This document shows, piece by piece, positions 5,299-61,183 of a stretch of 64,000 nt of DNA. The stretch's first letter is position 1. Each line of letters starts with the position of its first letter. The translations under genes were made by a program, and so were the position numbers. The stretch covers positions 11,946 to 75,945 of the forward strand of contig CAZHHN010000001.1 of the NCBI GenBank assembly GCA_964532415.1, written 5' to 3'. The notes below the pieces were generated by a model. That model did no database searches and had not been told where the DNA came from. It saw only the letters and a program-made list of their open reading frames with translations. The DNA is from an uncultured Gammaproteobacteria bacterium. GTDB taxonomy: Bacteria > Patescibacteriota > Patescibacteriia > SG8-24 > DYFX01.

Positions 5299-6117
5299 AT
5301 GGCAAACGACGATTTCAGGTTGGAGGTGGGAGCGGCACATCGGTTCGAGCTCGTGGCGCGCAGGGTGGGCTGGAGGAACAGCGACCTTACCCGCATGACG
5401 CAGGACCGGGTCATGCTCGGGCGCGTTCTCGACGTCATCAGGGGTATTGCGAGCATTGAGCCCGCTGCGCCTCTTGCCGATCGTGAGGCCGATCCATCTG
5501 CCTTGGATGGAATGGCCAGCGACGATTTCAGGTTGGGAGTGGGAGCGGCGCATCAGTTCGAGATCGCGGCGCGCGCGGGAGACTGGACGGATGCAGACCT
5601 TAGCCCCATGGAGCGTGAGGACACGCTCGCATGCATCCTTGCCTTCGTCCGGGGTGCCGGGAAGATTGTGTATATGCCGCATCTTGTCGACTGTAACGCC
5701 GATCCGTTCGTTCCGGACGGTCTATCGGTCGCGGAGTTCCACAGGGACGGCGTCATCGATCTTACCAAGACGGAGATCACGCTCTTCCTTTCGGCAAGGC
5801 AGAAACGCCCGCTCCGCGACCTGCCCGGGCACCGGGGCGGCGTCATCGATGGCCACGACCTCCGCAAGGAGATCGCAACCCGGCGGGCCCTGCACGTCAA
5901 TGTGCTCGACTATCTGCTCGCGCATCCGTCCCGTATCCCGCACGGGTGGAAGGGCGTGTCCGTGTTCTTCTGGAGAACGATTTATCTCGACGGGTTCGGC
6001 CATCCGAGCATCCGCTGCCTCTCTTGGGACGGCCGCAAGTGGTGCTCGAGCTACCGCCAGATCGGCCGCGGCTGGGGTCCAATCTATGCGGCTGCCTGCG
6101 GGCAAGATCGCGCATGA
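5299..6117 (+). CDS. Hypothetical protein with two tandem ~72-aa N-terminal repeats
   Basis: M(A)NDDFRLEVGAAHRFELVARRVGWRNSDLTRM... is repeated as MASDDFRLGVGAAHQFEIAARAGDWTDADLSPM... The direct repeat is also visible at nucleotide level with ~216 bp period starting ~5299 and ~5515. GGGAGA lies upstream of the 5299 ATG. Confidence 0.45.
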   Translation: MANDDFRLEVGAAHRFELVARRVGWRNSDLTRMTQDRVMLGRVLDVIRGIASIEPAAPLADREADPSALDGMASDDFRLGVGAAHQFEIAARAGDWTDADLSPMEREDTLACILAFVRGAGKIVYMPHLVDCNADPFVPDGLSVAEFHRDGVIDLTKTEITLFLSARQKRPLRDLPGHRGGVIDGHDLRKEIATRRALHVNVLDYLLAHPSRIPHGWKGVSVFFWRTIYLDGFGHPSIRCLSWDGRKWCSSYRQIGRGWGPIYAAACGQDRA

Positions 6118-17734: not shown

Positions 17735-19435
17735 GTGTCGATACCCAACGAAACACTCAAAAAGGCGCTGGCCGAGTTGGACGTGCTTCCGGCCGACCGG
17801 TTGGAAGCCGCTTTTCAGGGCGCGCAGGAACGCGGCGAGGATCTCGCCGAATATCTGGTCGAACGCAACGCGGTTTCCGACGAAAACATGGGGCGCGTCA
17901 TGGCGGACGTCTACGGGGTGCCGTTCGTGAATCTGCGCAACGAGACGGTCGGGGAGGACGTGCTCGGGCTCCTGCCGGTCGAAATGGTCAAGCGCTCGCG
18001 GGTGTTCCCGTTCCGGAAAGCCGACGGCGCCGTCTGGCTGGCGGTCAACGATCCGGGCGATCTCGAGGCGATCGCGGCCGTGCGGAAAAAAATCGCCGGT
18101 CCGGTCCGTACCTATTTCGCCACCCGCGACGATATCGGCCTGGCCGCCGCCCGCTATCGCCGCGACATCAAAGAAGTCTTCCAGGGGATCATCGCCGCCG
18201 CCGAAAAGCGCCTGAACGAGAAGCCAGACCTGTCGCCCGAAGACGCACTGCGGGAGCTGCCGATCGTCGAGATCGTCGATACCCTGCTGCTCTACGCCTT
18301 CCAGGCCGAAGCCTCCGACCTGCACATCGAGCCGCGCGAAAAAGAAGCCTACGTGCGTTTTCGGATCGACGGCATCATGCACGACATCGTGCGCTACCCG
18401 CGCTACATGCACGAGTTCATCGTCATGCGCCTGAAGATCATGGCGCGTCTGCGCACCGACGAGCATTTCGCCGCGCAGGACGGCAAGATCCGCGAGATCT
18501 TCGAAGGCGATCTGGTCGACCTGCGCGTCAGCATCGTGCCGGTCATCGAAGGCGAAAAGGTCGTGCTGCGTCTTCTGACCGAGCGCGGCCGGCACTTTTA
18601 TCTCGAATCGATCGGCCTCGGCGAAGAAGACGTCGCCAAAATCCGCGCCGCCGTCAAGAAGCCGTACGGCATGCTCCTGGCCGTCGGTCCGACCGGCTCG
18701 GGGAAAACAACGACGCTCTACGCCGTCCTGAAAGTGCTGAACACCAGCGAGGTCAACATCACCACCATCGAGGATCCGATCGAGTACGATATTCCCGGCG
18801 TCAGCCAGATCCAGGTCAACCCGCGGACGGGCATCACCTTCGCGGCCGGGCTCCGCGCGCTGCTCCGGCAGAATCCCGATATCATCATGGTCGGAGAGGT
18901 CCGCGATGAGGAAACCGCCGGCGTGGTCGTCAACTCGGCCATGACTGGCCACTTGGTGCTTTCGACGCTGCACACCAACGACGCCGCCACGACCCTGCCC
19001 CGCCTCCTCGACCTGAAGATCGAGCCGTTCCTGATCGCGTCGTCCGTCAACCTGATCGTCGCTCAGCGCCTGGTGCGCAGGATCTGCCCGCGCTGCGTGC
19101 GCAGTTCGGACGTGGCCGTCGCGGACCTGGAGCGCTACGTTCTGCCGGCCGGCGCCGTCGAACGGCTGCTCGGAAAAAAGAAGCGCGCGACCGTCTACGC
19201 CGGCGCCAAATGCGCGCTCTGCCGCCATACCGGCTACCTCGGGCGCGTCGGCATCTTCGAACTGCTGGAAGTCGGCGATGCCGTCCGCAAGCTGATCATG
19301 GCCCGCGCCAATGCTGACGAGATCGCCCAGGAAGCCGTCCGGCAGGGGATGGTGCCGATGCTGGAAGACGGCATCCGCAAAGTGCTGAACGGCCTCACGA
19401 CGCTCGATGAACTCCAGCGCGTCCTGCGCGATTGA
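17735..19435 (+). CDS. pilB: Type IV pilus assembly ATPase PilB / GspE family
   Basis: N-terminal GSPII_E_N-like region. Walker A GPTGSGKTTTLYA, Asp box, His box and the tetracysteine motif CPRC...CALC. Confidence 0.9.
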   Translation: MSIPNETLKKALAELDVLPADRLEAAFQGAQERGEDLAEYLVERNAVSDENMGRVMADVYGVPFVNLRNETVGEDVLGLLPVEMVKRSRVFPFRKADGAVWLAVNDPGDLEAIAAVRKKIAGPVRTYFATRDDIGLAAARYRRDIKEVFQGIIAAAEKRLNEKPDLSPEDALRELPIVEIVDTLLLYAFQAEASDLHIEPREKEAYVRFRIDGIMHDIVRYPRYMHEFIVMRLKIMARLRTDEHFAAQDGKIREIFEGDLVDLRVSIVPVIEGEKVVLRLLTERGRHFYLESIGLGEEDVAKIRAAVKKPYGMLLAVGPTGSGKTTTLYAVLKVLNTSEVNITTIEDPIEYDIPGVSQIQVNPRTGITFAAGLRALLRQNPDIIMVGEVRDEETAGVVVNSAMTGHLVLSTLHTNDAATTLPRLLDLKIEPFLIASSVNLIVAQRLVRRICPRCVRSSDVAVADLERYVLPAGAVERLLGKKKRATVYAGAKCALCRHTGYLGRVGIFELLEVGDAVRKLIMARANADEIAQEAVRQGMVPMLEDGIRKVLNGLTTLDELQRVLRD

Positions 19436-20653: not shown

Positions 20654-21121
20654 ATGCGCCGCGGCTTCACCATCCTCGAACTGCTGCTGACCGTCGGCCT
20701 GCTGTCGCTCACCGCCGCGGCCGTTTTCCTTCCGCTCTCGGCGCTCCAGGGCCGGAGCGGGCTGCAGAGTGGAACGGCCGGACTGCTGAACGTCTTCCGC
20801 CGGGCGCAAGCGCAGGCGCTTGCGGGTTACTTCGCCGATTCGTGGGGCATCCATCTTTCGGACGCGGACGGTTGCGCGCTGCCGGCCTCGCAGTACCATC
20901 TGTTCCGGGGTAGCGCGTTCACCAGCGCGACCGACACGATCGAGACGTTCAGCCTGCCGAATGCCGTAGCGGTGACGGCGCTCGCGATCGGTGGCGGCTG
21001 CGACGTGAAGTTCAGCCGCTACGGAGGATCGACGACGTCGACCGGCACGGTCACGCTGACCGGACCGTACGGCGCGACCACGCTCACCATCAACGGCTAT
21101 GGTCGGATCACGCAACCATAA
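20654..21121 (+). CDS. Pseudopilin / minor pilin with class III (prepilin) signal
   Basis: MRRGFTILELLLTVGLLSL carries the prepilin cleavage/methylation motif G|FTxxE. Confidence 0.8.
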   Translation: MRRGFTILELLLTVGLLSLTAAAVFLPLSALQGRSGLQSGTAGLLNVFRRAQAQALAGYFADSWGIHLSDADGCALPASQYHLFRGSAFTSATDTIETFSLPNAVAVTALAIGGGCDVKFSRYGGSTTSTGTVTLTGPYGATTLTINGYGRITQP

Positions 21122-24100
21122 GCCGGCAGGCGGCCAATCGACGATCGAAGTGCTGATCGCCGTCGGCACTTTCGCGCTGCTCGCGGCCGGACTGCTTCAG
21201 CTGGTTGCCAGCCCCCTGACGCTCGCCGGAGATTCGGCCAACCGTTTCAAAGCGTCAACCTTCGCCGACCAGGGCGTCGAGGCGGCGCGCGCCGTGAAGG
21301 AATCCGGCTGGACCCACCTCTCGACCGGCACGCACGGGCTGGCACGCTCCGGCGGCACCTGGTCGTTCAGCGGCTTTTCGGACGTGCCCGATACCGGCTT
21401 CGTGCGGTCGGTCGTCGTGGCGGACGTGGCGCGCGACGTGGGCGGCGCGATCGTGACGGGCGGCGGCACCGTCGATCCGCGCACGAAGAGCGTCACCGTC
21501 ACCGTCAGCTGGACCTTCGGCGTGGTCGCTTTGCCGCGCAGCGTCACCCGCTCCGTCTATCTCACCGACTGGAACGTCTACGATTGGACGCAGACGACCG
21601 ACGCCGACTTCTCGGCCGGCAGCAGGAGCGGCCTGACGATTTCCGGCACCGGGAGCGCTGCTCAGGTCGAACTCTCGCCGGCCAATAAAAGCTGGACATC
21701 CGGCGGCGGAACGCTCGTGGTGCATACGACCGACGCCGACTGGAACGGCGGCTCCTACGGCACCAACACGCAGGAAACCGGGACCGGCAGCACCGCTTCG
21801 GTGACCGAGCTCGGCGCATCGGCCTGGAGCGGCGTCAGCCAGGCCAAAACCTGGAACGAAACGACCGACACGGATTTCTCCGACGGCACCTTTTCGCAGA
21901 CGGCGGTCGTGGATACCGGCGACCTGGCCGGCGTCGGGTTGAACACGCAAATCGACTGGGCACCGCAGACCAGCCCCACCACCAATGACATGTACACGCT
22001 CGGAGCCGTGAGCGCCAACGACGTCTGGGCGGTCGGCAGCGCCGGAACGATCGCACATTGGAACGGCTCCGCCTGGAGCGCCGTCAGCAGTCCGACATCC
22101 CAGGGGTTGCACGACGTCGACTGCCTGACCGCGGCCAACTGCTGGGCGGTGGCCGATGCCGGACAGATCATCCGCTGGAATGGCACGAGCTGGACGAATT
22201 TCGTCGACACGGGCGCCGAAGTCTACAACGGCGTGACGATGACGTCGACAACGGACGGCTGGGCAGTGGCCGGCGGCACGAGCGGCACGGCCCGCGGCCG
22301 CATTTTCCGTTGGAACGGCACGGCTTGGTCGCAATTCGTCGACCTCGGCAGCCAGAATCTCAGTTCGATCGACTGCACCGGCACGTCGGACTGCTGGGCT
22401 TCGGCCGATTCCGGGCAGATCTTCCATTGGAACGGCACGGCCTGGTCGCAATTCGTCGACACCGGATCGGAGACCTGGAATGACCTGAATATGGTTTCGC
22501 CGACCGATGGCTGGATCGTCGGCGAAGGCGGCGCCATGCGGCGTTTCAATGGCACCAGCTGGAACACCGTCTCAAGCGGAGTCACCGGTTCCCTGGGCGA
22601 TGTCGAATGCGTTTCTTCCACCTACTGCCTGGTCGTCAGCGACGGCACGCCCCGGGTCTGGAACGGCACGGGCTGGTCGGCGATGAGCTTCGTGTCGGGC
22701 GTGACGCTCTACGGCCTGGCGGTCATTTCGTCGGGGAGTTCCTTCGGCATCGGCGCCGGCGGTGCCTTCGTCAATTACGGTACGCATTATTTCCCGAACG
22801 GAACGTACCTCTCCGGCATTTTCGATGCGGGCTCCGCGCAAACCTGGGGCACCGCCAGTTGGGACGCGGTGCTGGTTTCGGCGACGGGAGTGACGATCGC
22901 CACCCGGAGCGCTTCGACGCCGGCCGGTATCGGCTCGGCGGCCTGGAGCGCGGAGATGGCCGTTTCCGGTTCGGCGATCACGAGCGCCGCCAATCGTTAT
23001 CTCCAATACCGCATCACCCTGGCGACCCCGAATCGGAGCGCGACGCCGCGCCTGAACGCGATCACGATCAGCTACGCGGCGCCGGCGGTCGCCGATTACG
23101 AAGATCTCTACATGGCGGCCGACAACGACGGCTGGAGCTTCGGCAGCGGCGGCGCGATCGCGCGCTGGGACGGGACGGGCTGGAGCAAATTTTCTTCGCC
23201 GACGGTGAATCTGCTCGAGGCGGCGGCCGGGACGGCCTCGACCGACGTCTGGGCGATGGGCGCATCCGGGACGATCGTGCACTGGAACGGGACGGCTTGG
23301 TCGGTGATCGTGAGCGGCACCGCGCAGGCGCTGCACGGCGCGGCTTGTCTGACCTCGGGCAATTGCCGGACCGTCGGCGCTTCGGGAACGATCCTGCGCT
23401 GGAATGGCACGGCCTGGTCGGCCGAGGCCGATCCTTCAACGCAGGGTCTTGAAGCCGTCGGCTATACGGCGGCCAACGACGTTTGGGCCGTCGGCGGTAC
23501 CGACATCGTCCGTTTCAATGGCGCTTCATGGTCGGTCCATACGACGGTGGCCGGCGCCGCCTTTCACGGTCTTTGGATGGTCTCGGCCACTGACGGCTGG
23601 ACCGTCGGAGGCGGCGGTGCGATCCGGCGGTGGAACGGCACGGCTTGGTCAACGGTGACCAGCCCGACGACGAATGCGCTTCGGGATGTCCACTGCGCGA
23701 GCGCGTCGGACTGCTGGGCGGTCGGCGACGCCGGGACGATCATCCATTGGAACGGCACGGCTTGGTCGACGGCGGCCAGTCCGACCGGGCAGGCGATCGA
23801 AGCGGTCTTCATGAGTGGCGGGACGCACGGCTGGGCGGTCGCTCACGCCACGACCTTCCTGGAATACCGTACGGTCTATCCGGGCGGGGCGGCCTGGACC
23901 AGCCCGATCATCGACGGCGGCGCTGCCGGCACGACCTGGAACAGCGTGGCCTGGGATCAATCGCTGCCGCTCGGCACCGGCATCACGATCGCCAGCCGCT
24001 CGGGGCCGAATCCAACCTGCTGTACCGGCTGGTCTTCGTACAGCGCGGAGTACGCGTCGCCGGGCGGCTCTCCGGTCACGAGCCCGGCCAACCGTTATTT

Positions 24101-25280
24101 CCAGTATCGGACCACATTTACGACCGCCAACACCGTCTCGACCGGCGTTCTGCAGGAAGTGCGGATCCTGCGCGGCGCCGCAACCGCTCAGCCGCTCTAC
24201 GGCATTCAGGGCACGGCGGCGAGCGACGTCTGGGCCGTCGGCGAAGCCGGCACGATCCTGCGGTATGACGGTGCATCGTGGTCGGCGACCAACAGTCCGG
24301 TCACGACCGTGCTGCACGGCCTGGATGCGCTGACGTCGGCAAACGCGATCGCCGTCGGATACGGAGGCGTGATCCTGAAGATGAATGGTTCCGCCTGGAG
24401 CGCGATGAGCAGTCCGACCAACGAAGAGCTGTATGCGGTCGATCTGTTGGACGCGACGCATGGTTGGGCGGTCGGCACGGGCGGAGCGATCGTCAGTTAT
24501 AACGGGACGACGTGGTCGACGATCGCCAGCGGCACGGGCAGTCCGCTCTACGGCGTCTCGATGGTTTCCGCTTCGAACGGGTTCGCCGTCGGCGGCGGCG
24601 GCACCATCCGCAGATGGAACGGCACGAGCTGGTCGACGTCGGCGAGTCCGACTATCGACAATCTGAACGACGTATTCTGCCTGAATGCGTCGCTCTGCTG
24701 GGCGGTGGGGGACAACGGGCGCATCCTCAGTTGGAACGGCACGGTCTGGTCAGTGACGACGAGTCCGGTCGCGTCGCGGCTCAATGCCGTCGAAGCGCGC
24801 TCCGGCGGCGAAGTCTGGGCGGTCGGCGACTTCGGCACGATCCTGAAGTACGATGGCGTCTCCTGGGCCAGCTACGTTTCGCCGACGACGCGCGATCTGT
24901 ATTCCGTGGCCGTGTCGGCTCCGACCGACGGCTGGATCAGCGGGAATGCGGGGGAGTTGATCAAAGATCCGATCGCCTACGTCGGAACGGGCACGCTCTT
25001 CTCTTCGGTGCTCGACACCGACAGCGCCACTTCCACGTTTCAGACGGCCTTTTGGAATGCGATCACTCCGGCCAACACGGCGCTGCGCGTCTCGGCCCGG
25101 AACGGCAATACGTCTTCGCCCGACGGCAGCTGGTCGGGCTGGGGGCCGTATTTTTCCTCCGCCACCGGTTCGCCGATCGCCCTGCCGTCGGCGCGCTACC
25201 TTCAGTATCAGCTGACGCTTTCGACCAGCGACACGTCGATGACGCCATCCGTGCAGGACCTCACCATGACCTATGAATGA
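21099..25280 (+). CDS. Giant (1393 aa) pilin-like protein: prepilin-type N-terminus followed by three modules of WNGTxWS beta-propeller-like repeats
   Basis: N-terminus GGQSTIEVLIAVGTFALLAAGLL is a prepilin-like signal with a hydrophobic helix. There are >20 copies of a ~40-aa unit [GTI.(H/R)WNGT.WS...SPT...L..V.C.....CWAVGD.G]. Each of the three blocks ends with a conserved NRYLQYR(I/T)T..T segment. Confidence 0.7.
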   Translation: MVGSRNHKPAGGQSTIEVLIAVGTFALLAAGLLQLVASPLTLAGDSANRFKASTFADQGVEAARAVKESGWTHLSTGTHGLARSGGTWSFSGFSDVPDTGFVRSVVVADVARDVGGAIVTGGGTVDPRTKSVTVTVSWTFGVVALPRSVTRSVYLTDWNVYDWTQTTDADFSAGSRSGLTISGTGSAAQVELSPANKSWTSGGGTLVVHTTDADWNGGSYGTNTQETGTGSTASVTELGASAWSGVSQAKTWNETTDTDFSDGTFSQTAVVDTGDLAGVGLNTQIDWAPQTSPTTNDMYTLGAVSANDVWAVGSAGTIAHWNGSAWSAVSSPTSQGLHDVDCLTAANCWAVADAGQIIRWNGTSWTNFVDTGAEVYNGVTMTSTTDGWAVAGGTSGTARGRIFRWNGTAWSQFVDLGSQNLSSIDCTGTSDCWASADSGQIFHWNGTAWSQFVDTGSETWNDLNMVSPTDGWIVGEGGAMRRFNGTSWNTVSSGVTGSLGDVECVSSTYCLVVSDGTPRVWNGTGWSAMSFVSGVTLYGLAVISSGSSFGIGAGGAFVNYGTHYFPNGTYLSGIFDAGSAQTWGTASWDAVLVSATGVTIATRSASTPAGIGSAAWSAEMAVSGSAITSAANRYLQYRITLATPNRSATPRLNAITISYAAPAVADYEDLYMAADNDGWSFGSGGAIARWDGTGWSKFSSPTVNLLEAAAGTASTDVWAMGASGTIVHWNGTAWSVIVSGTAQALHGAACLTSGNCRTVGASGTILRWNGTAWSAEADPSTQGLEAVGYTAANDVWAVGGTDIVRFNGASWSVHTTVAGAAFHGLWMVSATDGWTVGGGGAIRRWNGTAWSTVTSPTTNALRDVHCASASDCWAVGDAGTIIHWNGTAWSTAASPTGQAIEAVFMSGGTHGWAVAHATTFLEYRTVYPGGAAWTSPIIDGGAAGTTWNSVAWDQSLPLGTGITIASRSGPNPTCCTGWSSYSAEYASPGGSPVTSPANRYFQYRTTFTTANTVSTGVLQEVRILRGAATAQPLYGIQGTAASDVWAVGEAGTILRYDGASWSATNSPVTTVLHGLDALTSANAIAVGYGGVILKMNGSAWSAMSSPTNEELYAVDLLDATHGWAVGTGGAIVSYNGTTWSTIASGTGSPLYGVSMVSASNGFAVGGGGTIRRWNGTSWSTSASPTIDNLNDVFCLNASLCWAVGDNGRILSWNGTVWSVTTSPVASRLNAVEARSGGEVWAVGDFGTILKYDGVSWASYVSPTTRDLYSVAVSAPTDGWISGNAGELIKDPIAYVGTGTLFSSVLDTDSATSTFQTAFWNAITPANTALRVSARNGNTSSPDGSWSGWGPYFSSATGSPIALPSARYLQYQLTLSTSDTSMTPSVQDLTMTYE

Positions 25281-36955: not shown

Positions 36956-38149
36956 ATGCTGGACAAGCGACTAGAAGATGTTGCGGTCGGGGACATTCAA
37001 GCGTTGGTGGAGAACAGTGTCCTCGAAAGAAAGACATTAGAGTACAAGTCAGAACTTCCCGAGAAAATAGACGACAGTAAAAGGGAGTTTTTGAAGGATG
37101 TTTCTTCCTTCGCGAACACTCTCGGAGGCGACTTGATATACGGTGTTCGAGAAGATGAGGGAATTTTAGATCCTAAAATCGGCTTGGTCGCGATAGACGC
37201 CGACGCGGAGATAGCGAGGTTGGAAAACATTATCCGCGACGGGATCTCCCCGAGAATTTCTGTGGAGATACGACCGATTCAATGGGAAGACAAAACTGTG
37301 TTGGTGCTGCGGATACGGGCCAGCCTGCAAGCGCCACATCGGGTCGTCTTTGGCGGGCACGACAAGTTTTACAAGCGGAACAGCAACGGAAAGTATCCAA
37401 TGGATGTGGGCGAGCTGCGGGTCGCCTTCTTGCAGTCAGGCGAGATTGTGGAACGTATCCGGCGGTTCCGGGAAGTACGGATTTCGGATATACAAGCGGA
37501 TGAGGCACCGCTACCCGTGATGTCGACAGATAGGTTTATCGGGATTCACATCATTCCTCTGTCCGCATTCAATGCCACGCAACGCTTGTCGCCACGAGTC
37601 ATCGAGGATATGAACGATGGCAAGGAGAGTCTGTTCACGCCGTTTCCGAATGTTCGCGGCTACAGCCACCACATCAATCTGGAGGGTGTAGTCCTCTACA
37701 CACCCAATCAGGAAAAAGGGTCGTGGCACTATACGCAGCTGTATCGTGACGGAAAAATCGAAGTATATGACAGTGTGAAGCTGACTGGGGCGGCGGGGTC
37801 ACAAAACAAGACGATTGCTATGTATGATTTGGAGGTATCGACGCTGGCTTATGTAGATAAGATGCGAAAGATGCTCGATAAGCTTGGCTTTGACCCGCCC
37901 TATTATGTGTTTGTTTCCTTGGTTGGAGTGCACGGCCTGACGGTGCATGTGCCATTTGGCACATTCGAACGCCCCGTGCCGATCAGGCAGAAGGACTTGC
38001 TGTTGCCAGAAGTGCTGTTGGAAAAATCCGAGGATGATCTCGCTCAGAAATTGAAGCCTGTGTTCGATATGGTTTGGAACGCGGCCGGTATCAGCGAGTC
38101 GCCAAATTTCACAGAGCAAGCTCCTTCGGTAGAACAAGTTGCTGGTTAG
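36956..38149 (+). CDS. AlbA_2 (Schlafen-like divergent AAA / putative DNA-binding) domain protein
   Basis: N-terminal ...ERKTLEYKSELPEKIDDSKREFLKDVSSFANTLGGDLIYGV... matches the AlbA_2 signature (ExK...L...aaFaNt.GG.L.iGV). 397 aa, low GC. Confidence 0.65.
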   Translation: MLDKRLEDVAVGDIQALVENSVLERKTLEYKSELPEKIDDSKREFLKDVSSFANTLGGDLIYGVREDEGILDPKIGLVAIDADAEIARLENIIRDGISPRISVEIRPIQWEDKTVLVLRIRASLQAPHRVVFGGHDKFYKRNSNGKYPMDVGELRVAFLQSGEIVERIRRFREVRISDIQADEAPLPVMSTDRFIGIHIIPLSAFNATQRLSPRVIEDMNDGKESLFTPFPNVRGYSHHINLEGVVLYTPNQEKGSWHYTQLYRDGKIEVYDSVKLTGAAGSQNKTIAMYDLEVSTLAYVDKMRKMLDKLGFDPPYYVFVSLVGVHGLTVHVPFGTFERPVPIRQKDLLLPEVLLEKSEDDLAQKLKPVFDMVWNAAGISESPNFTEQAPSVEQVAG

Positions 38150-38833: not shown

Positions 38834-39034
38834 CGTGATGCCTATGCGGCGTCCAGGCGAACTGTCGACAACTCACTGGAAGCCGGAGCGGGTGTCGGCC
38901 AGCGCACTTTTGCGGGGCATGAGTATGACGTGGGCACGAATCTCAGCTACATGGGAGCCCGCTATTACGACCCGGCGATCGGAAGGTTCCTATCGGAAGA
39001 CCCGATGTTCTTGGCTGTCGGTACCGGATGCTGA
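38834..39034 (+). pseudogene. Start-less orphan fragment of an RHS core / C-terminal junction (displaced ancestral RHS tip)
   Basis: In-frame translation ...TFAGHEYDVGTNLSYMGARYYDPAIGRFLSEDPMFLAVGTGC* parallels FAGQEYDVGTGLSYMGARYYDAGVGRFLSQDPAFLAVGD at 35431-35560 of the intact RHS gene. There is no ATG between the upstream in-frame stop (38831) and the fragment. High GC like the host. Confidence 0.7.
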
Positions 39035-51395: not shown

Positions 51396-51422
51396 TTAGC
51401 ACTCCATTAAAGTGAGTGCCAG
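51396..51422 (+). promoter_or_regulatory. CIRCE-like HrcA operator overlapping a sigma70-like promoter
   Basis: TTAGCACTC-N9-GAGTGCCAG versus the CIRCE consensus TTAGCACTC-N9-GAGTGCTAA. TTGACG at 51385-51390 and TAAAGT at 51408-51413 are 17 nt apart. Confidence 0.75.
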
Positions 51423-57876: not shown

Positions 57877-57961
57877 ATCGAGCCAAAAAGGATCAGTTAT
57901 CCCCACGGCCAAAAATACGCAAAAAAGGTATACTGCAGACACTTTCACTTTGCCTCAACCT

Positions 57962-60502
57962 ATGCAGATCGACCCTGCCGTTCGGAAGTTGGCCGCCGCC
58001 CTGAGCGCCGCGGCGCTCTTCTCGTTCGCCTATGCCGCGCAGGCCCAGTTCACGGCGCCGACCTGCACGCCGCCGAACTGCAGCCCGGCCGTCATTCAGA
58101 ACATTCCGCTGACCGGATCGACCCAGAACGCCGGGATCAACATCAGCGGCGACATCAAGGCGGGCGCCACCTTCCAAGCCGCTCAGACGCTGCTTCCACT
58201 CGGTACGGTCGCCGCGCCAACCTATACGTTCGTCGGCGACACCAACACCGGTTTCTATTCGCCGGCCGTCGATCAAATCGGCATCACGACCGGCGGCGCC
58301 CAGCGCTTCCTCGTGAACGGCAGCGGCGCGACGGTCGCGACCGGCCAGCTGACCCTGCCGGTCGGCAGTGCGGCCGTTCCTGCCATGACTTTCGCCGGCG
58401 ATACCAACACCGGCATCTTCCATAACGCGGCCGATACCCTCAACCTCGCCACTAACGGTGTTTCGCGCCTCGCCGTCGATTCTGCCGGCGCCGTGACGGT
58501 CCCTGGCAACCTGACGGTCAGCGGTTCGCTGACGGCCACGTTCGCGGGCGACGGCAGCCTGCTCACCAACCTGAACGCCGGCAATATCGCAACCGGCACG
58601 CTGAACGACGCACGCCTGTCGTCCAACATCCCCAGGCTGAACGCCGCCAACGCCTTTACCGGCAACAATACCCTGAGCGGCATGTCTTCTTTTGGAAGTT
58701 CCGCGCTGGTTCTTGCCGCCGGCCAGAATCTGGTCTACGGCAATATCGCGACCGGCTCGACGGGCAACCTCCTGCTGCTGCAGAAAAACAGCGCCGATCA
58801 ATTCCGCGTCGATCCGTCCGGTAACATTGTTGCGGCCGGCGGCCTGACGGCCACCACCGGCACCTTCAGCGGTAACGTCAGCGTGGCCGGACAGAGCGTC
58901 TGCCGGGCCGACGGCACCAACTGCCCACCAACGATCAACGGAAGCGGTACCACCAATTTCGTCCTGAAATTCACTCCTTCCGGTAATGTCGTCGGCAACT
59001 CCCAGCTTCAGGATGACGGGACGGGCGTCGGCGTCGGCGGCGTTCCGGTCGCCGGCATCAAGCTTTCGGTCGCCGGCAATATCGGGATGTCGTCCGGTTC
59101 ATACCTATCCGCCATCAATAACGGAACCGGCGCGGTATTAAGGACGAGCCGGTCCGACAACACCCAGGTTGGCCAGATCAAGACCAACGGCTGGGGCAAC
59201 TTTTCGACCAGCAGCGGCCTGGCCGTCGGCTATGATTGGCCGAACAGCCCGCAATCCGGCCTGATCGTCAACGGTAACCTCGGCATCGGTATAGCTGCGC
59301 CGCTCGGAAAAGTACAGATCGCGACGAATGACGACACGAATCCCACCAGTGTGAGCGCCTGGGATGCGCGGCATTTCGTGGTCGGCCAGCCTGCCAACGC
59401 GGGCGCCGTCGGCATTTCATACAACAATACGGGAGGATACGGCATCATCGATGCGCTCTCTCCCGGCGTGGCCTGGAAGAATCTCATCCTTCAGAGCGGC
59501 GGCGGCAACGTCGGCATCGGCACGCTGGCCCCTTCCCAACGGCTGGAAGTGAACGGAACGGCCGCCGCTTCGAAAATCATCGCCGGCGGCGGAGCGTCAA
59601 GCAATTGGGCCGACGTCAACGCTCCGGTATTGATGGCCGGTTCGGTAATCTACTCCTACGGATCGATCTGCGCCGGTGAAAGCAACGGCAACTGCACCGG
59701 CAACGGCGGCGTGGTTATCGGCGGCAGCGACCCCAATGCCTGGACCAATCTTACGAGTAGCGGTAATTCGTTCTTCACCGGCAGGCTCGGCATCGGGACG
59801 AAGACGCCGACGGCGCCATTGGCGGTTGAGACTTGGGGAGACGACTACGCCGGCACCTTCTTCAACGGCAGTGCGGGATTTGGCGGTGCTTCCCGTGCCA
59901 TTTTTGCACAGGCGGGGAACTTTGCGGTCGGTGCTGGCACGGAGTATGCCATCCAAGCGGATGCTTATAGTAACGGTGCATCGGCCTATGCCCTTTATGC
60001 CACGGCAAGCTGCTTGAGCTGCGGAGGGGCCGCTTGGGGTGTGTATATCGGATCCGGCGGAGCGGCTAAACCGGGTGGAGGTCCGTGGAGCGCGACGTCC
60101 GATCGGCGCGTGAAAAAGGACATCACTCCGTTTAAGGAGGGTTTGAATGTTCTGCGCCAAATCAACCCGATCAACTACACCTATAACGGTCTTGGCGAAA
60201 TGCCGGAAGGTTTTAAGGCGGTCGGCGTGATCGCTCAGGATGTCAAGAAGATCGCGCCTTACATGGTCACGACTGATTATCGCAAGCTACGCCCGACCGA
60301 TACCGAAAAAACGCCGATCTATATGGTGGATCCGAATGACTTCACGTACATGACCATCAACGCCATCAAGGAACTCGATCTGCGGATCGACGGGCTCGAA
60401 GCCAGGGTCGCCGGGCGGCAGGACGACCAGGACCGGCGTATCCAAGCGCTGGAAGCCGAAGTCTCCGCGCTCCAGGCCGAAGTGAAGGCGTTAAAACCTT
60501 AG
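57962..60502 (+). CDS. Secreted tail-fibre-like protein with C-terminal intramolecular-chaperone (peptidase S74-like) domain and coiled-coil tail
   Basis: Signal peptide (AALSAAALFSFAYAAQAQ). Long G/T/N/A-rich beta-repeat region. C-terminal SDRRVKKDITPF...LRQINPINYTYNG...GVIAQDVKKIAPYMV...TINAIKELDLRI matches the S74 chaperone-of-endosialidase pattern. The final ~40 aa form heptad-like repeats. Confidence 0.65.
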   Translation: MQIDPAVRKLAAALSAAALFSFAYAAQAQFTAPTCTPPNCSPAVIQNIPLTGSTQNAGINISGDIKAGATFQAAQTLLPLGTVAAPTYTFVGDTNTGFYSPAVDQIGITTGGAQRFLVNGSGATVATGQLTLPVGSAAVPAMTFAGDTNTGIFHNAADTLNLATNGVSRLAVDSAGAVTVPGNLTVSGSLTATFAGDGSLLTNLNAGNIATGTLNDARLSSNIPRLNAANAFTGNNTLSGMSSFGSSALVLAAGQNLVYGNIATGSTGNLLLLQKNSADQFRVDPSGNIVAAGGLTATTGTFSGNVSVAGQSVCRADGTNCPPTINGSGTTNFVLKFTPSGNVVGNSQLQDDGTGVGVGGVPVAGIKLSVAGNIGMSSGSYLSAINNGTGAVLRTSRSDNTQVGQIKTNGWGNFSTSSGLAVGYDWPNSPQSGLIVNGNLGIGIAAPLGKVQIATNDDTNPTSVSAWDARHFVVGQPANAGAVGISYNNTGGYGIIDALSPGVAWKNLILQSGGGNVGIGTLAPSQRLEVNGTAAASKIIAGGGASSNWADVNAPVLMAGSVIYSYGSICAGESNGNCTGNGGVVIGGSDPNAWTNLTSSGNSFFTGRLGIGTKTPTAPLAVETWGDDYAGTFFNGSAGFGGASRAIFAQAGNFAVGAGTEYAIQADAYSNGASAYALYATASCLSCGGAAWGVYIGSGGAAKPGGGPWSATSDRRVKKDITPFKEGLNVLRQINPINYTYNGLGEMPEGFKAVGVIAQDVKKIAPYMVTTDYRKLRPTDTEKTPIYMVDPNDFTYMTINAIKELDLRIDGLEARVAGRQDDQDRRIQALEAEVSALQAEVKALKP

Positions 60503-60506
60503 CCTG

Positions 60507-60540
60507 AAAAAAGACCGCCGGGCGAGGCGGTCTTTCGTTT
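60507..60540. terminator. Bidirectional rho-independent terminator between convergent genes
   Basis: AAAAAAGACCGCC-GGGCGA-GGCGGTCTTTCGTTT. Confidence 0.7.
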
Positions 60541-61142
60541 CAGCGGATTCGCACTTCCGTGGCGTCGAAAACGGATTCTTTCAGGATGTTATGATCGGCG
60601 CTGATCTGGGCGAAACTCCCGGCAGTCACTTCCGAAAGCGGAATGGGGATTTCTTTGGAAGGATTAACGGGATGGTATTTGGTGAGATCGCCGCCGGCCG
60701 CCGTCAGGGCATCTTGCTGCTCTTTCTGCAGCTCTTCTCCCGATTTCTGCGCGATCCGATAGAACTTGGTGGTTGGGGTGATCCGTACGGTCCTTTTGGC
60801 GGGTCCGGGCAGCTGCTCAAGCGGATTCGCCACCGTCAGATCGACTTCAAACTCGAGCGAATCCCTGCCGACGGAAACGATCCTGCCCATCAGGATCGAA
60901 GTTTCATTCGGCACCGACGGGAAGAAATGCAGCTTCTCCAATTTTTCCCGCGCGGCGTCGTATCCTTCCTGATACGTCGGGGCGAGCGGAATCGAGAAGC
61001 GCCCGATGCCGTAGCCGGTCAGGAGTCCGGCCGTGAGTCCGATCAGGGCGCTGGTCGGGATCTTCCGGCCGACGCGGGTCGGCCGGGGCCGGGTTGCCGG
61101 CGCGGGCGTCGGCGGCTTGGGAAGCGGCGTGCTGATTGGCAT
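60540..61142 (-). CDS. Membrane-anchored hypothetical protein (Pro-rich N-terminus, single TM)
   Basis: ATG at 61142 (the TTG at 61163 is an alternative). TM helix ALIGLTAGLLTGYGIG. Confidence 0.45.
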   Translation of the reverse strand: MPISTPLPKPPTPAPATRPRPTRVGRKIPTSALIGLTAGLLTGYGIGRFSIPLAPTYQEGYDAAREKLEKLHFFPSVPNETSILMGRIVSVGRDSLEFEVDLTVANPLEQLPGPAKRTVRITPTTKFYRIAQKSGEELQKEQQDALTAAGGDLTKYHPVNPSKEIPIPLSEVTAGSFAQISADHNILKESVFDATEVRIR

Positions 61143-61183
61143 ATTGAAAAGTTTATGGAACAATGCTTCCGCAAGTATAGCAT

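What the first reader, a model, noticed from the sequence alone, without database searches (positions are those of the whole stretch)
57962..60502. Chromosomal 850-aa secreted protein with phage-tail-fibre-like architecture and an auto-cleaving S74 chaperone domain, not next to phage genes
The C-terminal ~130 aa (..SDRRVKKDITPF..LRQINPINYTYNG..GVIAQDVKKIAPYMV..MTINAIKELDLRI) follow the conserved pattern of the intramolecular chaperone (peptidase S74) that folds and then cleaves itself from trimeric beta-helical tailspikes and fibres. The body is a Gly/Thr/Asn/Ala-rich beta-repeat region with an ordinary Sec signal peptide, and the last ~40 residues are heptad-like (RIQALEAEVSALQAEVKALK). The neighbours are dnaJ and a membrane protein. 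There is no capsid, terminase or integrase. It therefore appears to be a domesticated fibre, perhaps a surface adhesin or S-layer-like spike.
Basis: partly seen in the sequence, partly recalled or inferred. Interest (0 to 1): 0.6.

Follow-up and report, generated by a model that had tools for sequence, protein, structure and literature searches.

The report
Chromosomal phage-like fibre in a Patescibacterium
An ultrasmall (candidate phyla radiation) bacterium carries, at a fixed place in its chromosome, a secreted protein built like a phage tail fibre with a self-cleaving folding domain; it is a plausible but untested candidate for how these bacteria recognise the cells they live on.

Summary
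Window 57962-60502 (+) encodes an 846-aa protein with these parts:
- a Sec-type signal peptide
- a Gly/Ala/Thr/Ser/Asn-rich body with tail-fibre repeats
- a canonical C-terminal Peptidase_S74 intramolecular-chaperone domain (Pfam 47 bits against a cut-off of 22; invariant S713/K718 in the SDxxxK motif; modelled fold 2.8 A from the MyRF ICA domain and 1.4 A from a phage ICA domain)

The heptad tail is the chaperone's own coiled coil, not a separate feature.

The gene is not phage-borne. In the 9 distinct related genomes recovered, nearly all MAGs (records titled Patescibacteria/Minisyncoccota, some Gammaproteobacteria), the ortholog lies directly after dnaJ. Wherever the contig reaches further, it also lies before cysS. 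No relative was found in IMG/VR viral contigs.

Orthologs keep a nearly invariant N-terminal module (A|QF..PTC.PP.C.P.VIQN). That module occurs in only 26 of 1.84 billion protein clusters. The orthologs also keep a conserved proximal shaft. The distal half and the C-terminal cap are swapped between species, and some orthologs lack S74.

The closest described system is the Bdellovibrio MAT fibres (S74 and non-S74 subgroups). The most likely reading is a surface-attached trimeric recognition or adhesion fibre matured by S74 self-cleavage. Its identity is well supported. Its function and anchoring are inferred.

The parts
57962..60502 (+). Coding sequence of the 846-aa fibre protein (stop TAG at 60500-60502)
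   Evidence: ORF list. The start is fixed by the ortholog alignment and by an independent gene call.
57962..58045 (+). Sec-type signal peptide, residues 1-28. Predicted signal peptidase I cut is A28|Q29 (A-Q-A|Q-F).
   Evidence: Basic n-region and a hydrophobic core at residues 10-24. A28, Q29 and F30 are invariant in 18 orthologs. Judged by inspection, without a predictor.
58046..58180 (+). Family-defining N-terminal module of the mature protein, residues 29-73 (QFxxPTCxPPxCxPxVIQN...INxxGDxKxG, with the C35/C40 pair). Proposed cell-proximal attachment end.
   Evidence: Mean column identity is 70 %, with 18 invariant columns. A profile of it finds only 26 clusters among 1.84 billion, and the 23 best matches (E <= 1.5e-6) all start within the first 14 residues of the protein.
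58202..58525 (+). Two tandem 54-aa tail-fibre repeats, residues 81-134 and 135-188 (G-S/T-x-A-x-P-x-x-T-F-x-G-D-T-N-T-G...)
   Evidence: phrog_28766 'tail fiber protein', three stretches, E = 3.2e-21. GDTNTG occurs at residues 92 and 146. This is the only part of the body modelled with pLDDT 55-72.
58547..58660 (+). GDGSxLTNLNAxNIxxGTLxDARLSSN motif, residues 196-233. It is a module shared with many unrelated large surface proteins.
   Evidence: BLAST segments covering residues ~170-245 at 45-69 % identity in FG-GAP, Kelch and S74 proteins.
58046..59011 (+). Conserved proximal shaft, residues 29-350, including the C314/C321 pair
   Evidence: Per-window identity to orthologs is 0.44-0.57.
59012..60061 (+). 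Variable distal half, residues 351-700, with Cys pairs 570/578 and 684/687. Proposed ligand-binding end.
   Evidence: Identity to orthologs drops to 0.14-0.29. Orthologs carry different inserts and lengths, 846-1418 aa. One 98-aa block (residues 438-535) is 67 % identical to an otherwise different protein, P0031.
60098..60499 (+). Peptidase_S74 intramolecular chaperone, residues 713-846 (134 aa). The scissile bond is T712-S713. The S713 codon is at 60098-60100 and the K718 codon at 60113-60115.
   Evidence: Pfam. Profile against PDB: 8jov 1e-19, 7dc3 5e-19, 6f45 2e-18. Model pLDDT is 87-98. Foldseek gives 7dc3 at rmsd 2.8 A, with 3gud and 3gw6 at probability 1.0, and 305 viral ICA/S74 proteins.
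60335..60493 (+). C-terminal long helix with heptads, residues 792-844. This is the trimerising coiled coil of the chaperone.
   Evidence: Secondary structure and pLDDT. The T5 pb1 chaperone ends in a triple coiled coil (PMC4690869).
60513..60540 (.). Hairpin GACCGCC-GGGCGA-GGCGGTC, flanked by an A-run and a T-run, between the convergent fibre and membrane-protein genes. Likely a bidirectional intrinsic terminator.
   Evidence: Sequence. RNA fold of -23.1 kcal/mol, z = -3.8. The simple terminator scan did not list it.

Best explanation
The gene encodes a cellular, vertically inherited relative of phage receptor-binding fibres. The proposed pathway has five steps.
1. The 846-aa precursor is exported by Sec, and its leader is removed at A28|Q29.
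2. Outside the cytoplasm, three chains are brought into register by the C-terminal S74 domain, starting from its terminal coiled coil. The chaperone templates folding of the intertwined beta-structured fibre from the C-terminus towards the N-terminus.
3. Once the trimer is correctly folded, S713, activated by K718, cleaves the T712-S713 bond. This releases the 134-aa chaperone and uncovers the distal tip.
4. The mature fibre (residues 29-712, about 684 aa per chain) stays on the cell through its nearly invariant N-terminal module.
5. The variable distal half binds a ligand on another cell or surface. In a Patescibacterium the most likely ligand is the envelope of its host. Exchange of distal modules and C-terminal caps between species would retune specificity.

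Shown here: the domain identities, the catalytic dyad, the fold of the chaperone, the non-phage conserved locus and the conserved-proximal/variable-distal pattern. Inferred: export, trimerisation, self-cleavage, surface retention and the ligand.
For: S74 identity:
- Pfam 47.3 bits.
- S713 and K718 are invariant in 29 C-termini, and both are present in all 12 S74-bearing orthologs.
- PDB profile hits go only to S74/ICA proteins.
- The confident model superposes on MyRF ICA, the GA-1 chaperone and the endoNF chaperone and on 305 viral S74 fibres.

Fibre body: 14 PHROG families match, 11 of them tail-fibre families.

Extracytoplasmic location: a leader with an invariant A-Q-F junction. Eight cysteines fall in four close pairs at 35/40, 314/321, 570/578 and 684/687.

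Cellular rather than viral:
- All 11 loci from species-representative genomes (9 distinct genomes) have the fibre gene directly downstream of dnaJ.
- All 8 loci long enough to show it have cysS downstream. DnaK is 80-92 %, DnaJ 66-80 % and CysS 55-61 % identical to the window.
- None of 44 candidate stretches in IMG/VR is a relative.
- Only 5 weak partial hits appear in 50,697 phage genomes.
- Housekeeping genes lie on both sides.

Receptor-binding layout: identity to orthologs is 0.44-0.57 for residues 1-350, 0.14-0.29 for residues 351-700 and 0.48 again at the S74 start. Orthologs have alternative C-terminal caps.

Precedent: Bdellovibrio MAT fibres are secreted, surface-located, S74- or non-S74-capped trimers with a conserved N-terminal domain, and self-cleavage of Bd3182 was demonstrated (PMC10769870).
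Against: - Nothing here shows a trimer. Only monomer prediction was available, and the full-length model is poor (mean pLDDT 41.5).
- Cleavage, surface retention and any ligand are untested.
- No recognised anchoring device is present: Pfam and NCBIfam detect no anchoring domain, only S74 is found. The fibre could therefore simply be released.
- Only one copy per genome was seen through the N-terminal motif, against 21 MATs in Bdellovibrio.
- The lifestyle of this high-GC (~62 %) lineage is unknown.
- Six of the related records are titled 'Gammaproteobacteria'. The Patescibacteria assignment rests on the other record titles, including one 1.17-Mb complete genome.
Confidence: 0.6

Rival explanations
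1. It is a secreted tailspike-like enzyme. The S74-chaperoned trimer would carry a polysaccharide-degrading activity, as in the endosialidases where S74 was first found, and would digest host capsule, cell wall or biofilm matrix rather than merely bind it.
For: S74 caps enzymatic tailspikes as well as fibres (3gw6 endosialidase chaperone and 6eu4 tail spike among the hits). About 350 residues of the distal half (351-700) have no family assignment.
Against: No glycosidase, lyase or esterase domain is detected. The sequence is dominated by short fibre repeats. The best PHROG matches are fibres, not depolymerases. The distal half varies too much between orthologs for a conserved active site.
Confidence: 0.12
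2. It is a structural component of the bacterium's own envelope, such as a spike, a coat or a spacer (S-layer-like), with no role in recognising other cells.
For: It is single copy, at a fixed locus, with a strongly conserved N-terminal half.
Against: No SLH or other S-layer domain is present. Module swapping in the distal half and exchange of C-terminal caps between close species is the pattern of receptor-binding proteins, not of lattice-forming proteins.
Confidence: 0.12
3. It is the fibre of a phage-derived particle (prophage remnant, tailocin or extracellular contractile injection system) whose other genes lie elsewhere.
For: It is homologous to tail-fibre families. Fibres of eCIS can carry S74 domains (papers listed).
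Against: It has a Sec leader, whereas particle fibres assemble in the cytoplasm. No tail, baseplate, capsid, terminase or integrase gene is present among the window ORFs scanned or within +-10 kb in three relatives. It occupies the identical housekeeping position in 9 other genomes. It has no IMG/VR relative.
Confidence: 0.04

Closest known systems
Bdellovibrio bacteriovorus MAT (mosaic adhesive trimer) fibres, S74 subgroup, e.g. Bd3182 (PMC10769870)
   Same: Both are chromosomal, non-phage and carry a signal peptide. Both have a conserved module directly after the leader, a long Gly-rich fibre body of ~1000 aa, and a C-terminal S74 domain with the SDxxxK motif. Family members exist with alternative non-S74 caps, and the tips are mosaic and swappable. 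The producer is a bacterium that lives on or in other bacteria.
   Different: Here the host lineage is (by record titles) Patescibacteria, which lack an outer membrane. There is one copy at a fixed dnaJ-cysS locus rather than 21 dispersed paralogs. The N-terminal module is short (~45 aa, Cys-containing) and extremely narrow in distribution. Homology to the ~130-aa MAT N-domain could not be tested. The only sequence contact with a MAT structure is a non-significant match to Bd2133 (E = 0.6).
[quoted passage not shown]
   Same: The C-terminal chaperone is the same size (134 aa here; residues 1263/1264-1396 in pb1). A Thr-Ser scissile bond is followed by Lys at +5. The chain ends in a terminal triple coiled coil. 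Profile match to 8hqz is 3.6e-14.
   Different: pb1 is a virion protein made in the cytoplasm without a leader and is attached to a tail. Its bullet-shaped tip has no detectable similarity to the distal half here.
K1F endosialidase C-terminal intramolecular chaperone domain (PDB 3gw6) and GA-1 neck appendage chaperone (3gud)
   Same: The founding S74 members. Foldseek probability is 1.0, and the profile hit to 3gud is 2.2e-7.
   Different: Those cap enzymatic or appendage proteins of phages. No sialidase or other catalytic body is present here.
Myelin regulatory factor (MyRF) ICA domain (PDB 7dc3)
   Same: Best solved structural match (rmsd 2.8 A over 126 columns, TM 0.68; profile E = 5e-19). 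It is another example of S74 captured by a cellular gene.
   Different: MyRF is a eukaryotic membrane-bound transcription factor. There, cleavage releases a DNA-binding domain rather than maturing a fibre.

Membership tests
Peptidase S74 / intramolecular chaperone auto-processing (ICA, CIMCD) domain | Match to the family profile above the curated threshold | tested here: met
   PF13884, 47.3 bits against a cut-off of 22, profile positions 1-57 of 58.
Peptidase S74 / intramolecular chaperone auto-processing (ICA, CIMCD) domain | Catalytic Ser and Lys five residues apart (SDxxxK) at the start of the domain | tested here: met
   S713-D-R-R-V-K718. S and K are invariant in 29 aligned C-termini and present in all 12 S74-bearing orthologs. 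They align with the SDxRxK of solved members.
Peptidase S74 / intramolecular chaperone auto-processing (ICA, CIMCD) domain | Characteristic fold: alpha/beta unit, beta-hairpin 'tentacle' and C-terminal helix forming a trimeric coiled coil | tested here: met
   AF2 model pLDDT 87-98. Foldseek gives 7dc3, 3gud and 3gw6 at probability 1.0, and the best viral ICA protein at rmsd 1.4 A. The coiled coil itself was modelled as a single helix only.
Peptidase S74 / intramolecular chaperone auto-processing (ICA, CIMCD) domain | Trimer-dependent self-cleavage releasing the domain | not testable with these tools
   Needs expression of wild type against S713A or K718A, or proteomics.
Bdellovibrio-type MAT fibres | Signal peptide, i.e. 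a secreted cellular protein | tested here: met
   Leader features and an invariant A|QF junction. Judged by inspection, without a dedicated predictor.
Bdellovibrio-type MAT fibres | The MAT-specific conserved ~130-aa beta-rich N-terminal domain | not tested
   No Bdellovibrio MAT N-domain sequence or structure was reachable, and afdb50 was unavailable. This family has its own, different-looking 45-aa module.
Bdellovibrio-type MAT fibres | Mosaic body with interchangeable C-terminal tips, both S74 and non-S74 | tested here: met
   Orthologs P0014, P0015, P0017 and P0018 carry an unrelated ~185-aa cap, and P0013 and P0020 end in ...YCYKP, while 12 orthologs carry S74.
Bdellovibrio-type MAT fibres | Homotrimeric fibre on the cell surface that engages other bacteria | not testable with these tools
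   Only monomer prediction is offered, and the full-length model is poor.
Phage or tailocin tail fibre (particle component) | Encoded with tail, baseplate and other virion genes | tested here: not met
   Housekeeping neighbours in the window and in all related loci. No IMG/VR relative.
Phage or tailocin tail fibre (particle component) | Sequence homology to tail-fibre families | tested here: met
   phrog_28766, phrog_1980, phrog_5481 and others, with E from 3e-21 to 1e-8.
Trimeric autotransporter adhesin | C-terminal YadA-type beta-barrel membrane anchor | tested here: not met
   The C-terminus is S74, and Pfam detects no anchor domain. One JGI record names a distant homolog this way (P0086), which appears to be a misnomer.

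The most novel reading that the evidence does not exclude
This single-copy gene, at a conserved position in the chromosome, is the host-recognition organelle of a lineage of groundwater Patescibacteria. On this reading it is a phage-style receptor-binding fibre, folded outside the cell by an S74 chaperone and held on the cell by a lineage-specific N-terminal module. Its distal half and cap are exchanged between species to switch hosts. Host range of uncultivated ultrasmall bacteria could then be read, and eventually predicted, from one locus.
Probability: 0.3. Interest if true: 0.7.

Novelty: new member of a known kind. Interest (0 to 1): 0.45.

Why it matters
How Patescibacteria find and bind their hosts is largely unknown. 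Work so far points to type IV pili and unspecified adhesins (PMC11623550, PMC10633639).

This locus offers a concrete candidate with a recognisable layout:
- a conserved attachment end
- a variable binding end
- a self-removing chaperone

It is also easy to find in metagenomes, because it always follows dnaJ.

It extends the idea established for Bdellovibrio, that bacteria living on other bacteria reuse phage receptor-binding architecture, to a second and very different lineage that has no outer membrane. It is also a case where S74-assisted folding would have to happen after Sec export.

The limits are real. The S74 domain is already auto-annotated in such genomes as 'tail fiber domain-containing protein'. 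The lineage is uncultivated. Nothing about function has been tested.

Tried and rejected
- **Full-length AF2 monomer model.** Mean pLDDT was 41.5 and the body could not be interpreted. Only the repeats and the S74 domain were usable. A separate C-terminal model was then made.
- **NCBIfam.** No hit for the fibre or for the neighbouring membrane protein.
- **Paralogs in the window.** None found by tblastn.
- **Diversity-generating retroelement.** A search for a template repeat found no DNA repeat linking the gene to any other place in the window.
- **Recent phage origin.** Only five short, weak hits in GenBank phages and none in IMG/VR.
- **Alternative C-terminal cap of four orthologs.** No Pfam, PHROG or PDB sequence match.
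- **Conserved accessory gene next to the fibre.** The small genes beside it in relatives are unrelated to each other and absent from the window.
- **afdb50 fold search.** This was meant to test similarity to Bdellovibrio MAT models, but the library was not available.
- **Literature.** Four searches found no paper describing S74 fibres in Patescibacteria. One preprint mentions a 'tail fibre-like protein' near a CPR pilus operon, in a different context.
- **Promoter upstream.** Only a TATACT at 57929-57934, with no -35 element. The consensus scan found nothing there, so whether the gene is read through from dnaJ is open.
Full report

An ORF runs from 57950 (TTG) or 57962 (ATG) to 60502 on the + strand. 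The ATG start gives 846 aa and is preferred. All 17 aligned orthologs begin at the equivalent Met, and an independent assembly (Logan SRR8931232) calls the identical 846-aa product.

Pfam finds one domain, Peptidase_S74. It covers residues 713-769 over profile positions 1-57 of 58, with E = 2.5e-12 and 47.3 bits against a curated cut-off of 22.

PHROGs finds 14 families, eleven of them annotated as tail fibre. They cover the N-terminal repeats (phrog_28766, 3.2e-21), the distal part (phrog_1980, residues 521-820) and the C-terminus.

The body (residues 29-710) is G 16.3, A 13.0, T 9.5, S 9.4 and N 8.7 %.

**2. The C-terminal domain**

The motif S713-D-R-R-V-K718 is the SDxxxK dyad. The evidence for a canonical S74 domain is as follows.
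- In an alignment of 29 diverse C-termini the only invariant columns are S713, K718 and one Ala of the IAQ motif.
- All 12 S74-bearing orthologs keep both S and K.
- A profile of that alignment hits only S74/ICA proteins in the PDB at significant E-values: a putative tail fibre 8jov (1e-19), MyRF ICA 7dc3 (5.2e-19), phage S16 gp37 6f45 (2.2e-18), an L-shaped tail fibre 8hqz (3.6e-14), the GA-1 neck appendage 3gud (2.2e-7) and the tail spike 6eu4 (6.9e-4). The Ser and Lys are aligned in each printed alignment.
- An AF2 model of residues 641-846 has pLDDT 87-98 over the S74 part.
- That model superposes on 7dc3 (rmsd 2.8 A over 126 columns, TM 0.68), and on 3gud and 3gw6 at probability 1.0.
- It also matches 305 viral proteins at E <= 0.001. 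Those carrying a name in the top 50 are ICA/S74 proteins, tail fibres or uncharacterised proteins, and the best superposes at rmsd 1.4 A.

The fragment from S713 to the end is 134 aa, the size of the T5 pb1 chaperone. Like that chaperone it ends in a long helix (residues 792-844). In T5 this helix forms the trimeric coiled coil from which folding is thought to start (PMC4690869).

**3. The N-terminus and the body**

Residues 1-28 look like a Sec leader: R8 and K9, then a hydrophobic core at residues 10-24, then A26-Q27-A28. A28, Q29 and F30 are invariant in 18 orthologs.

What follows the leader is strikingly conserved. The consensus is QFxxPTCxPPxCxPxVIQN...INxxGDxKxG, with 70 % mean column identity.

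A profile of residues 1-73 searched against 1.84 billion cluster representatives finds only 26 proteins (21 at E <= 1e-10). The 23 best matches (E <= 1.5e-6) all start within the first 14 residues of the protein. The full-length examples are 711-1626 aa. The module is therefore specific to this small family.

After the module come:
- two 54-aa tail-fibre repeats (residues 81-188)
- a GDGSxLTNLNAxNIxxGTLxDARL motif, shared with many unrelated large surface proteins
- a conserved shaft reaching to about residue 350

The eight cysteines fall in four close pairs: 35/40, 314/321, 570/578 and 684/687. This suits an extracytoplasmic protein.

Identity to orthologs is 0.44-0.57 over residues 1-350. 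It falls to 0.14-0.29 over residues 351-700 and returns to 0.48 at the start of S74. This is the layout of a receptor-binding protein: conserved attachment end, variable distal end, conserved chaperone.

**4. Genomic context**

The window is chromosomal and housekeeping. The gene order around the fibre is:
- a CIRCE operator (51396-51422)
- hrcA, grpE, hsp20, dnaK, an opposite-strand ORF, dnaJ
- the fibre gene
- a convergent single-pass membrane protein, then cysS

Upstream lie RarA/MgsA, a PBP transpeptidase, a Mur ligase, a Ser/Thr kinase and a Band 7 protein. Farther away are type IV pilus genes, a histidine kinase and a giant RHS toxin. A strong hairpin directly after the stop codon looks like a bidirectional terminator.

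A scan of one genome per species (185,579 species) with the N-terminal motif returned 11 loci from 9 distinct genomes (two repeat contigs fetched earlier). One locus was found per genome. The fibre gene lies directly downstream of dnaJ in all 11. It lies upstream of cysS in all 8 loci long enough to show it. DnaK is 80-92 %, DnaJ 66-80 % and CysS 55-61 % identical to the window, against about 40-50 % for the fibre's N-terminal part (gene calls).

Record titles say 'Patescibacteria group bacterium' (including a 1.17-Mb complete genome, CP129476.1) or 'Minisyncoccota bacterium', which is the NCBI name of that phylum. Six records are titled 'uncultured Gammaproteobacteria'. I take these as likely mislabels, given the shared synteny and the near-identical DnaK.

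No relative exists among IMG/VR viral contigs. GenBank phages give only five short, weak hits. The gene is therefore an old, vertically inherited resident and not a prophage remnant.

**5. Mosaicism**

Orthologs range from 846 to 1418 aa and differ by whole modules. Twelve end in S74. Four (P0014, P0015, P0017, P0018) end in an unrelated ~185-aa domain plus a coiled coil, which has no Pfam, PHROG or PDB match. Two (P0013, P0020) end in ...YCYKP with no chaperone-like domain.

One 98-aa block of the window protein (residues 438-535) is 67 % identical to a block in an otherwise different 1021-aa protein from Hainich groundwater.

The small genes beside the fibre differ between genomes and are absent from the window.

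**6. Most likely mechanism**

By homology with endoNF, T5 pb1 and Bd3182, the proposed pathway is:
- export through Sec
- trimerisation nucleated by the S74 coiled coil
- chaperoned folding of the fibre
- trimer-dependent cleavage at T712|S713
- retention through the invariant N-terminal module
- ligand binding by the uncovered distal end

The domain identities, the dyad, the chaperone fold, the locus and the conservation gradient are shown. Export, trimer formation, cleavage, anchoring and the ligand are inferred.

The full-length monomer model was too poor to say anything about the body.

**7. Comparison with what is known**

The closest described system is the Bdellovibrio MAT family. These are 21 secreted fibres with a conserved N-terminal domain. 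Thirteen end in S74 and eight in other tips. Self-cleavage was demonstrated for Bd3182, and the fibres have a role at the predator-prey interface (PMC10769870).

The present protein works like a MAT on every testable point. It differs in four ways:
- lineage
- envelope type
- copy number (one, at a fixed locus)
- N-terminal module, whose relation to the MAT N-domain could not be tested

It is a full member of the S74 domain family. It is not a particle tail fibre, because the context and the leader fail that test. It is not a trimeric autotransporter.

Four literature searches found no description of such fibres in Patescibacteria. NCBI's pipeline already labels relatives 'tail fiber domain-containing protein'.

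**8. Verdict**

The finding is real and correctly read. It is a new member of a known kind (cellular S74-capped fibres), found in a lineage where host recognition is an open problem.

Interest is moderate at 0.45. It gives a good, easily located candidate with a clear experimental path, but the architecture has a precedent and no function has been tested.

Noticed in passing
window 21099-25280 (+): A 1393-aa ORF built of at least 11 copies of a 39-aa (117-nt) repeat ending in ...G.I..WNGT.WS. Pfam gives only a marginal CBM_5_12 match and NCBIfam gives none. It lies between the type IV pilus genes pilB (17735-19435) and pilM (26228-28312).
   Followed up: partly
window 30195-36236 (+), 35468-35542 and 38947-39021: A 2013-aa SpvB / TcdB_midN / FG-GAP / RHS protein that ends in an SLT lytic transglycosylase domain. 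The end of its RHS core (YMGARYYD..GRFLS.DP) recurs 3.5 kb downstream at 71 % identity, like an orphan RHS toxin cassette. The stretch between them (36-38 kb) drops to 50 % GC and holds a Schlafen AlbA_2 gene (36956-38149).
   Followed up: partly
window 51396-51422 (+): A CIRCE-like inverted repeat (TTAGCACTC-N9-GAGTGCCAG, 2 mismatches; 0.01 expected by chance) overlaps the listed start of hrcA. The hrcA-grpE-hsp20-dnaK-dnaJ cluster just upstream of the fibre gene is therefore probably HrcA-controlled. Whether the fibre gene is read through from dnaJ is unknown.
   Followed up: no
related loci L008 (P0017) and the orthologs P0014, P0015, P0018: At the same dnaJ-cysS position these orthologs replace S74 with an uncharacterised ~185-aa C-terminal domain (DIAEVY...AGIYSTSPGVLMG...ALAGRVPVKVT...PGDLLT...AMKA...) followed by a coiled coil. 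It has no Pfam, PHROG or PDB sequence match. It may be a different intramolecular chaperone.
   Followed up: partly
L016 3151-6216 (P0031, Hainich groundwater contig): A 1021-aa protein with a different N-terminus shares a 98-aa block that is 67 % identical to residues 438-535 of the window fibre. This points to exchange of fibre modules between different proteins. Its neighbours are nucleotidyltransferase toxin-antitoxin-like genes, not phage genes.
   Followed up: partly
L001 6267-6842; L002 13538-14056 (also L009, L005); L003 9468-9974 (also L006): The small genes that sit next to the fibre gene in relatives are unrelated to one another and have no counterpart in the window. They are a putative lipoprotein with an HExxH zincin motif, a second lipoprotein-like protein, and a multi-pass membrane protein. 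The dnaJ-cysS interval therefore behaves as a small variable spot.
   Followed up: partly
window 28406-28606 and 28974-29174; 5299-5397 and 5512-5610: Two pairs of direct DNA repeats: 201 nt at 83 % identity and 99 nt at 79 % identity. They lie within or between small ORFs and suggest tandem paralogous genes or domains. The first pair is just downstream of pilM.
   Followed up: no
window 60540-61163 (-): The convergent neighbour is a 207-aa single-pass membrane protein with no family match. It keeps its position next to the fibre gene in 8 of the 11 related loci at 31-44 % identity (absent from L006 and L009; three other contigs end too early). All genes here are syntenic, so this alone does not link it to the fibre.
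   Followed up: partly
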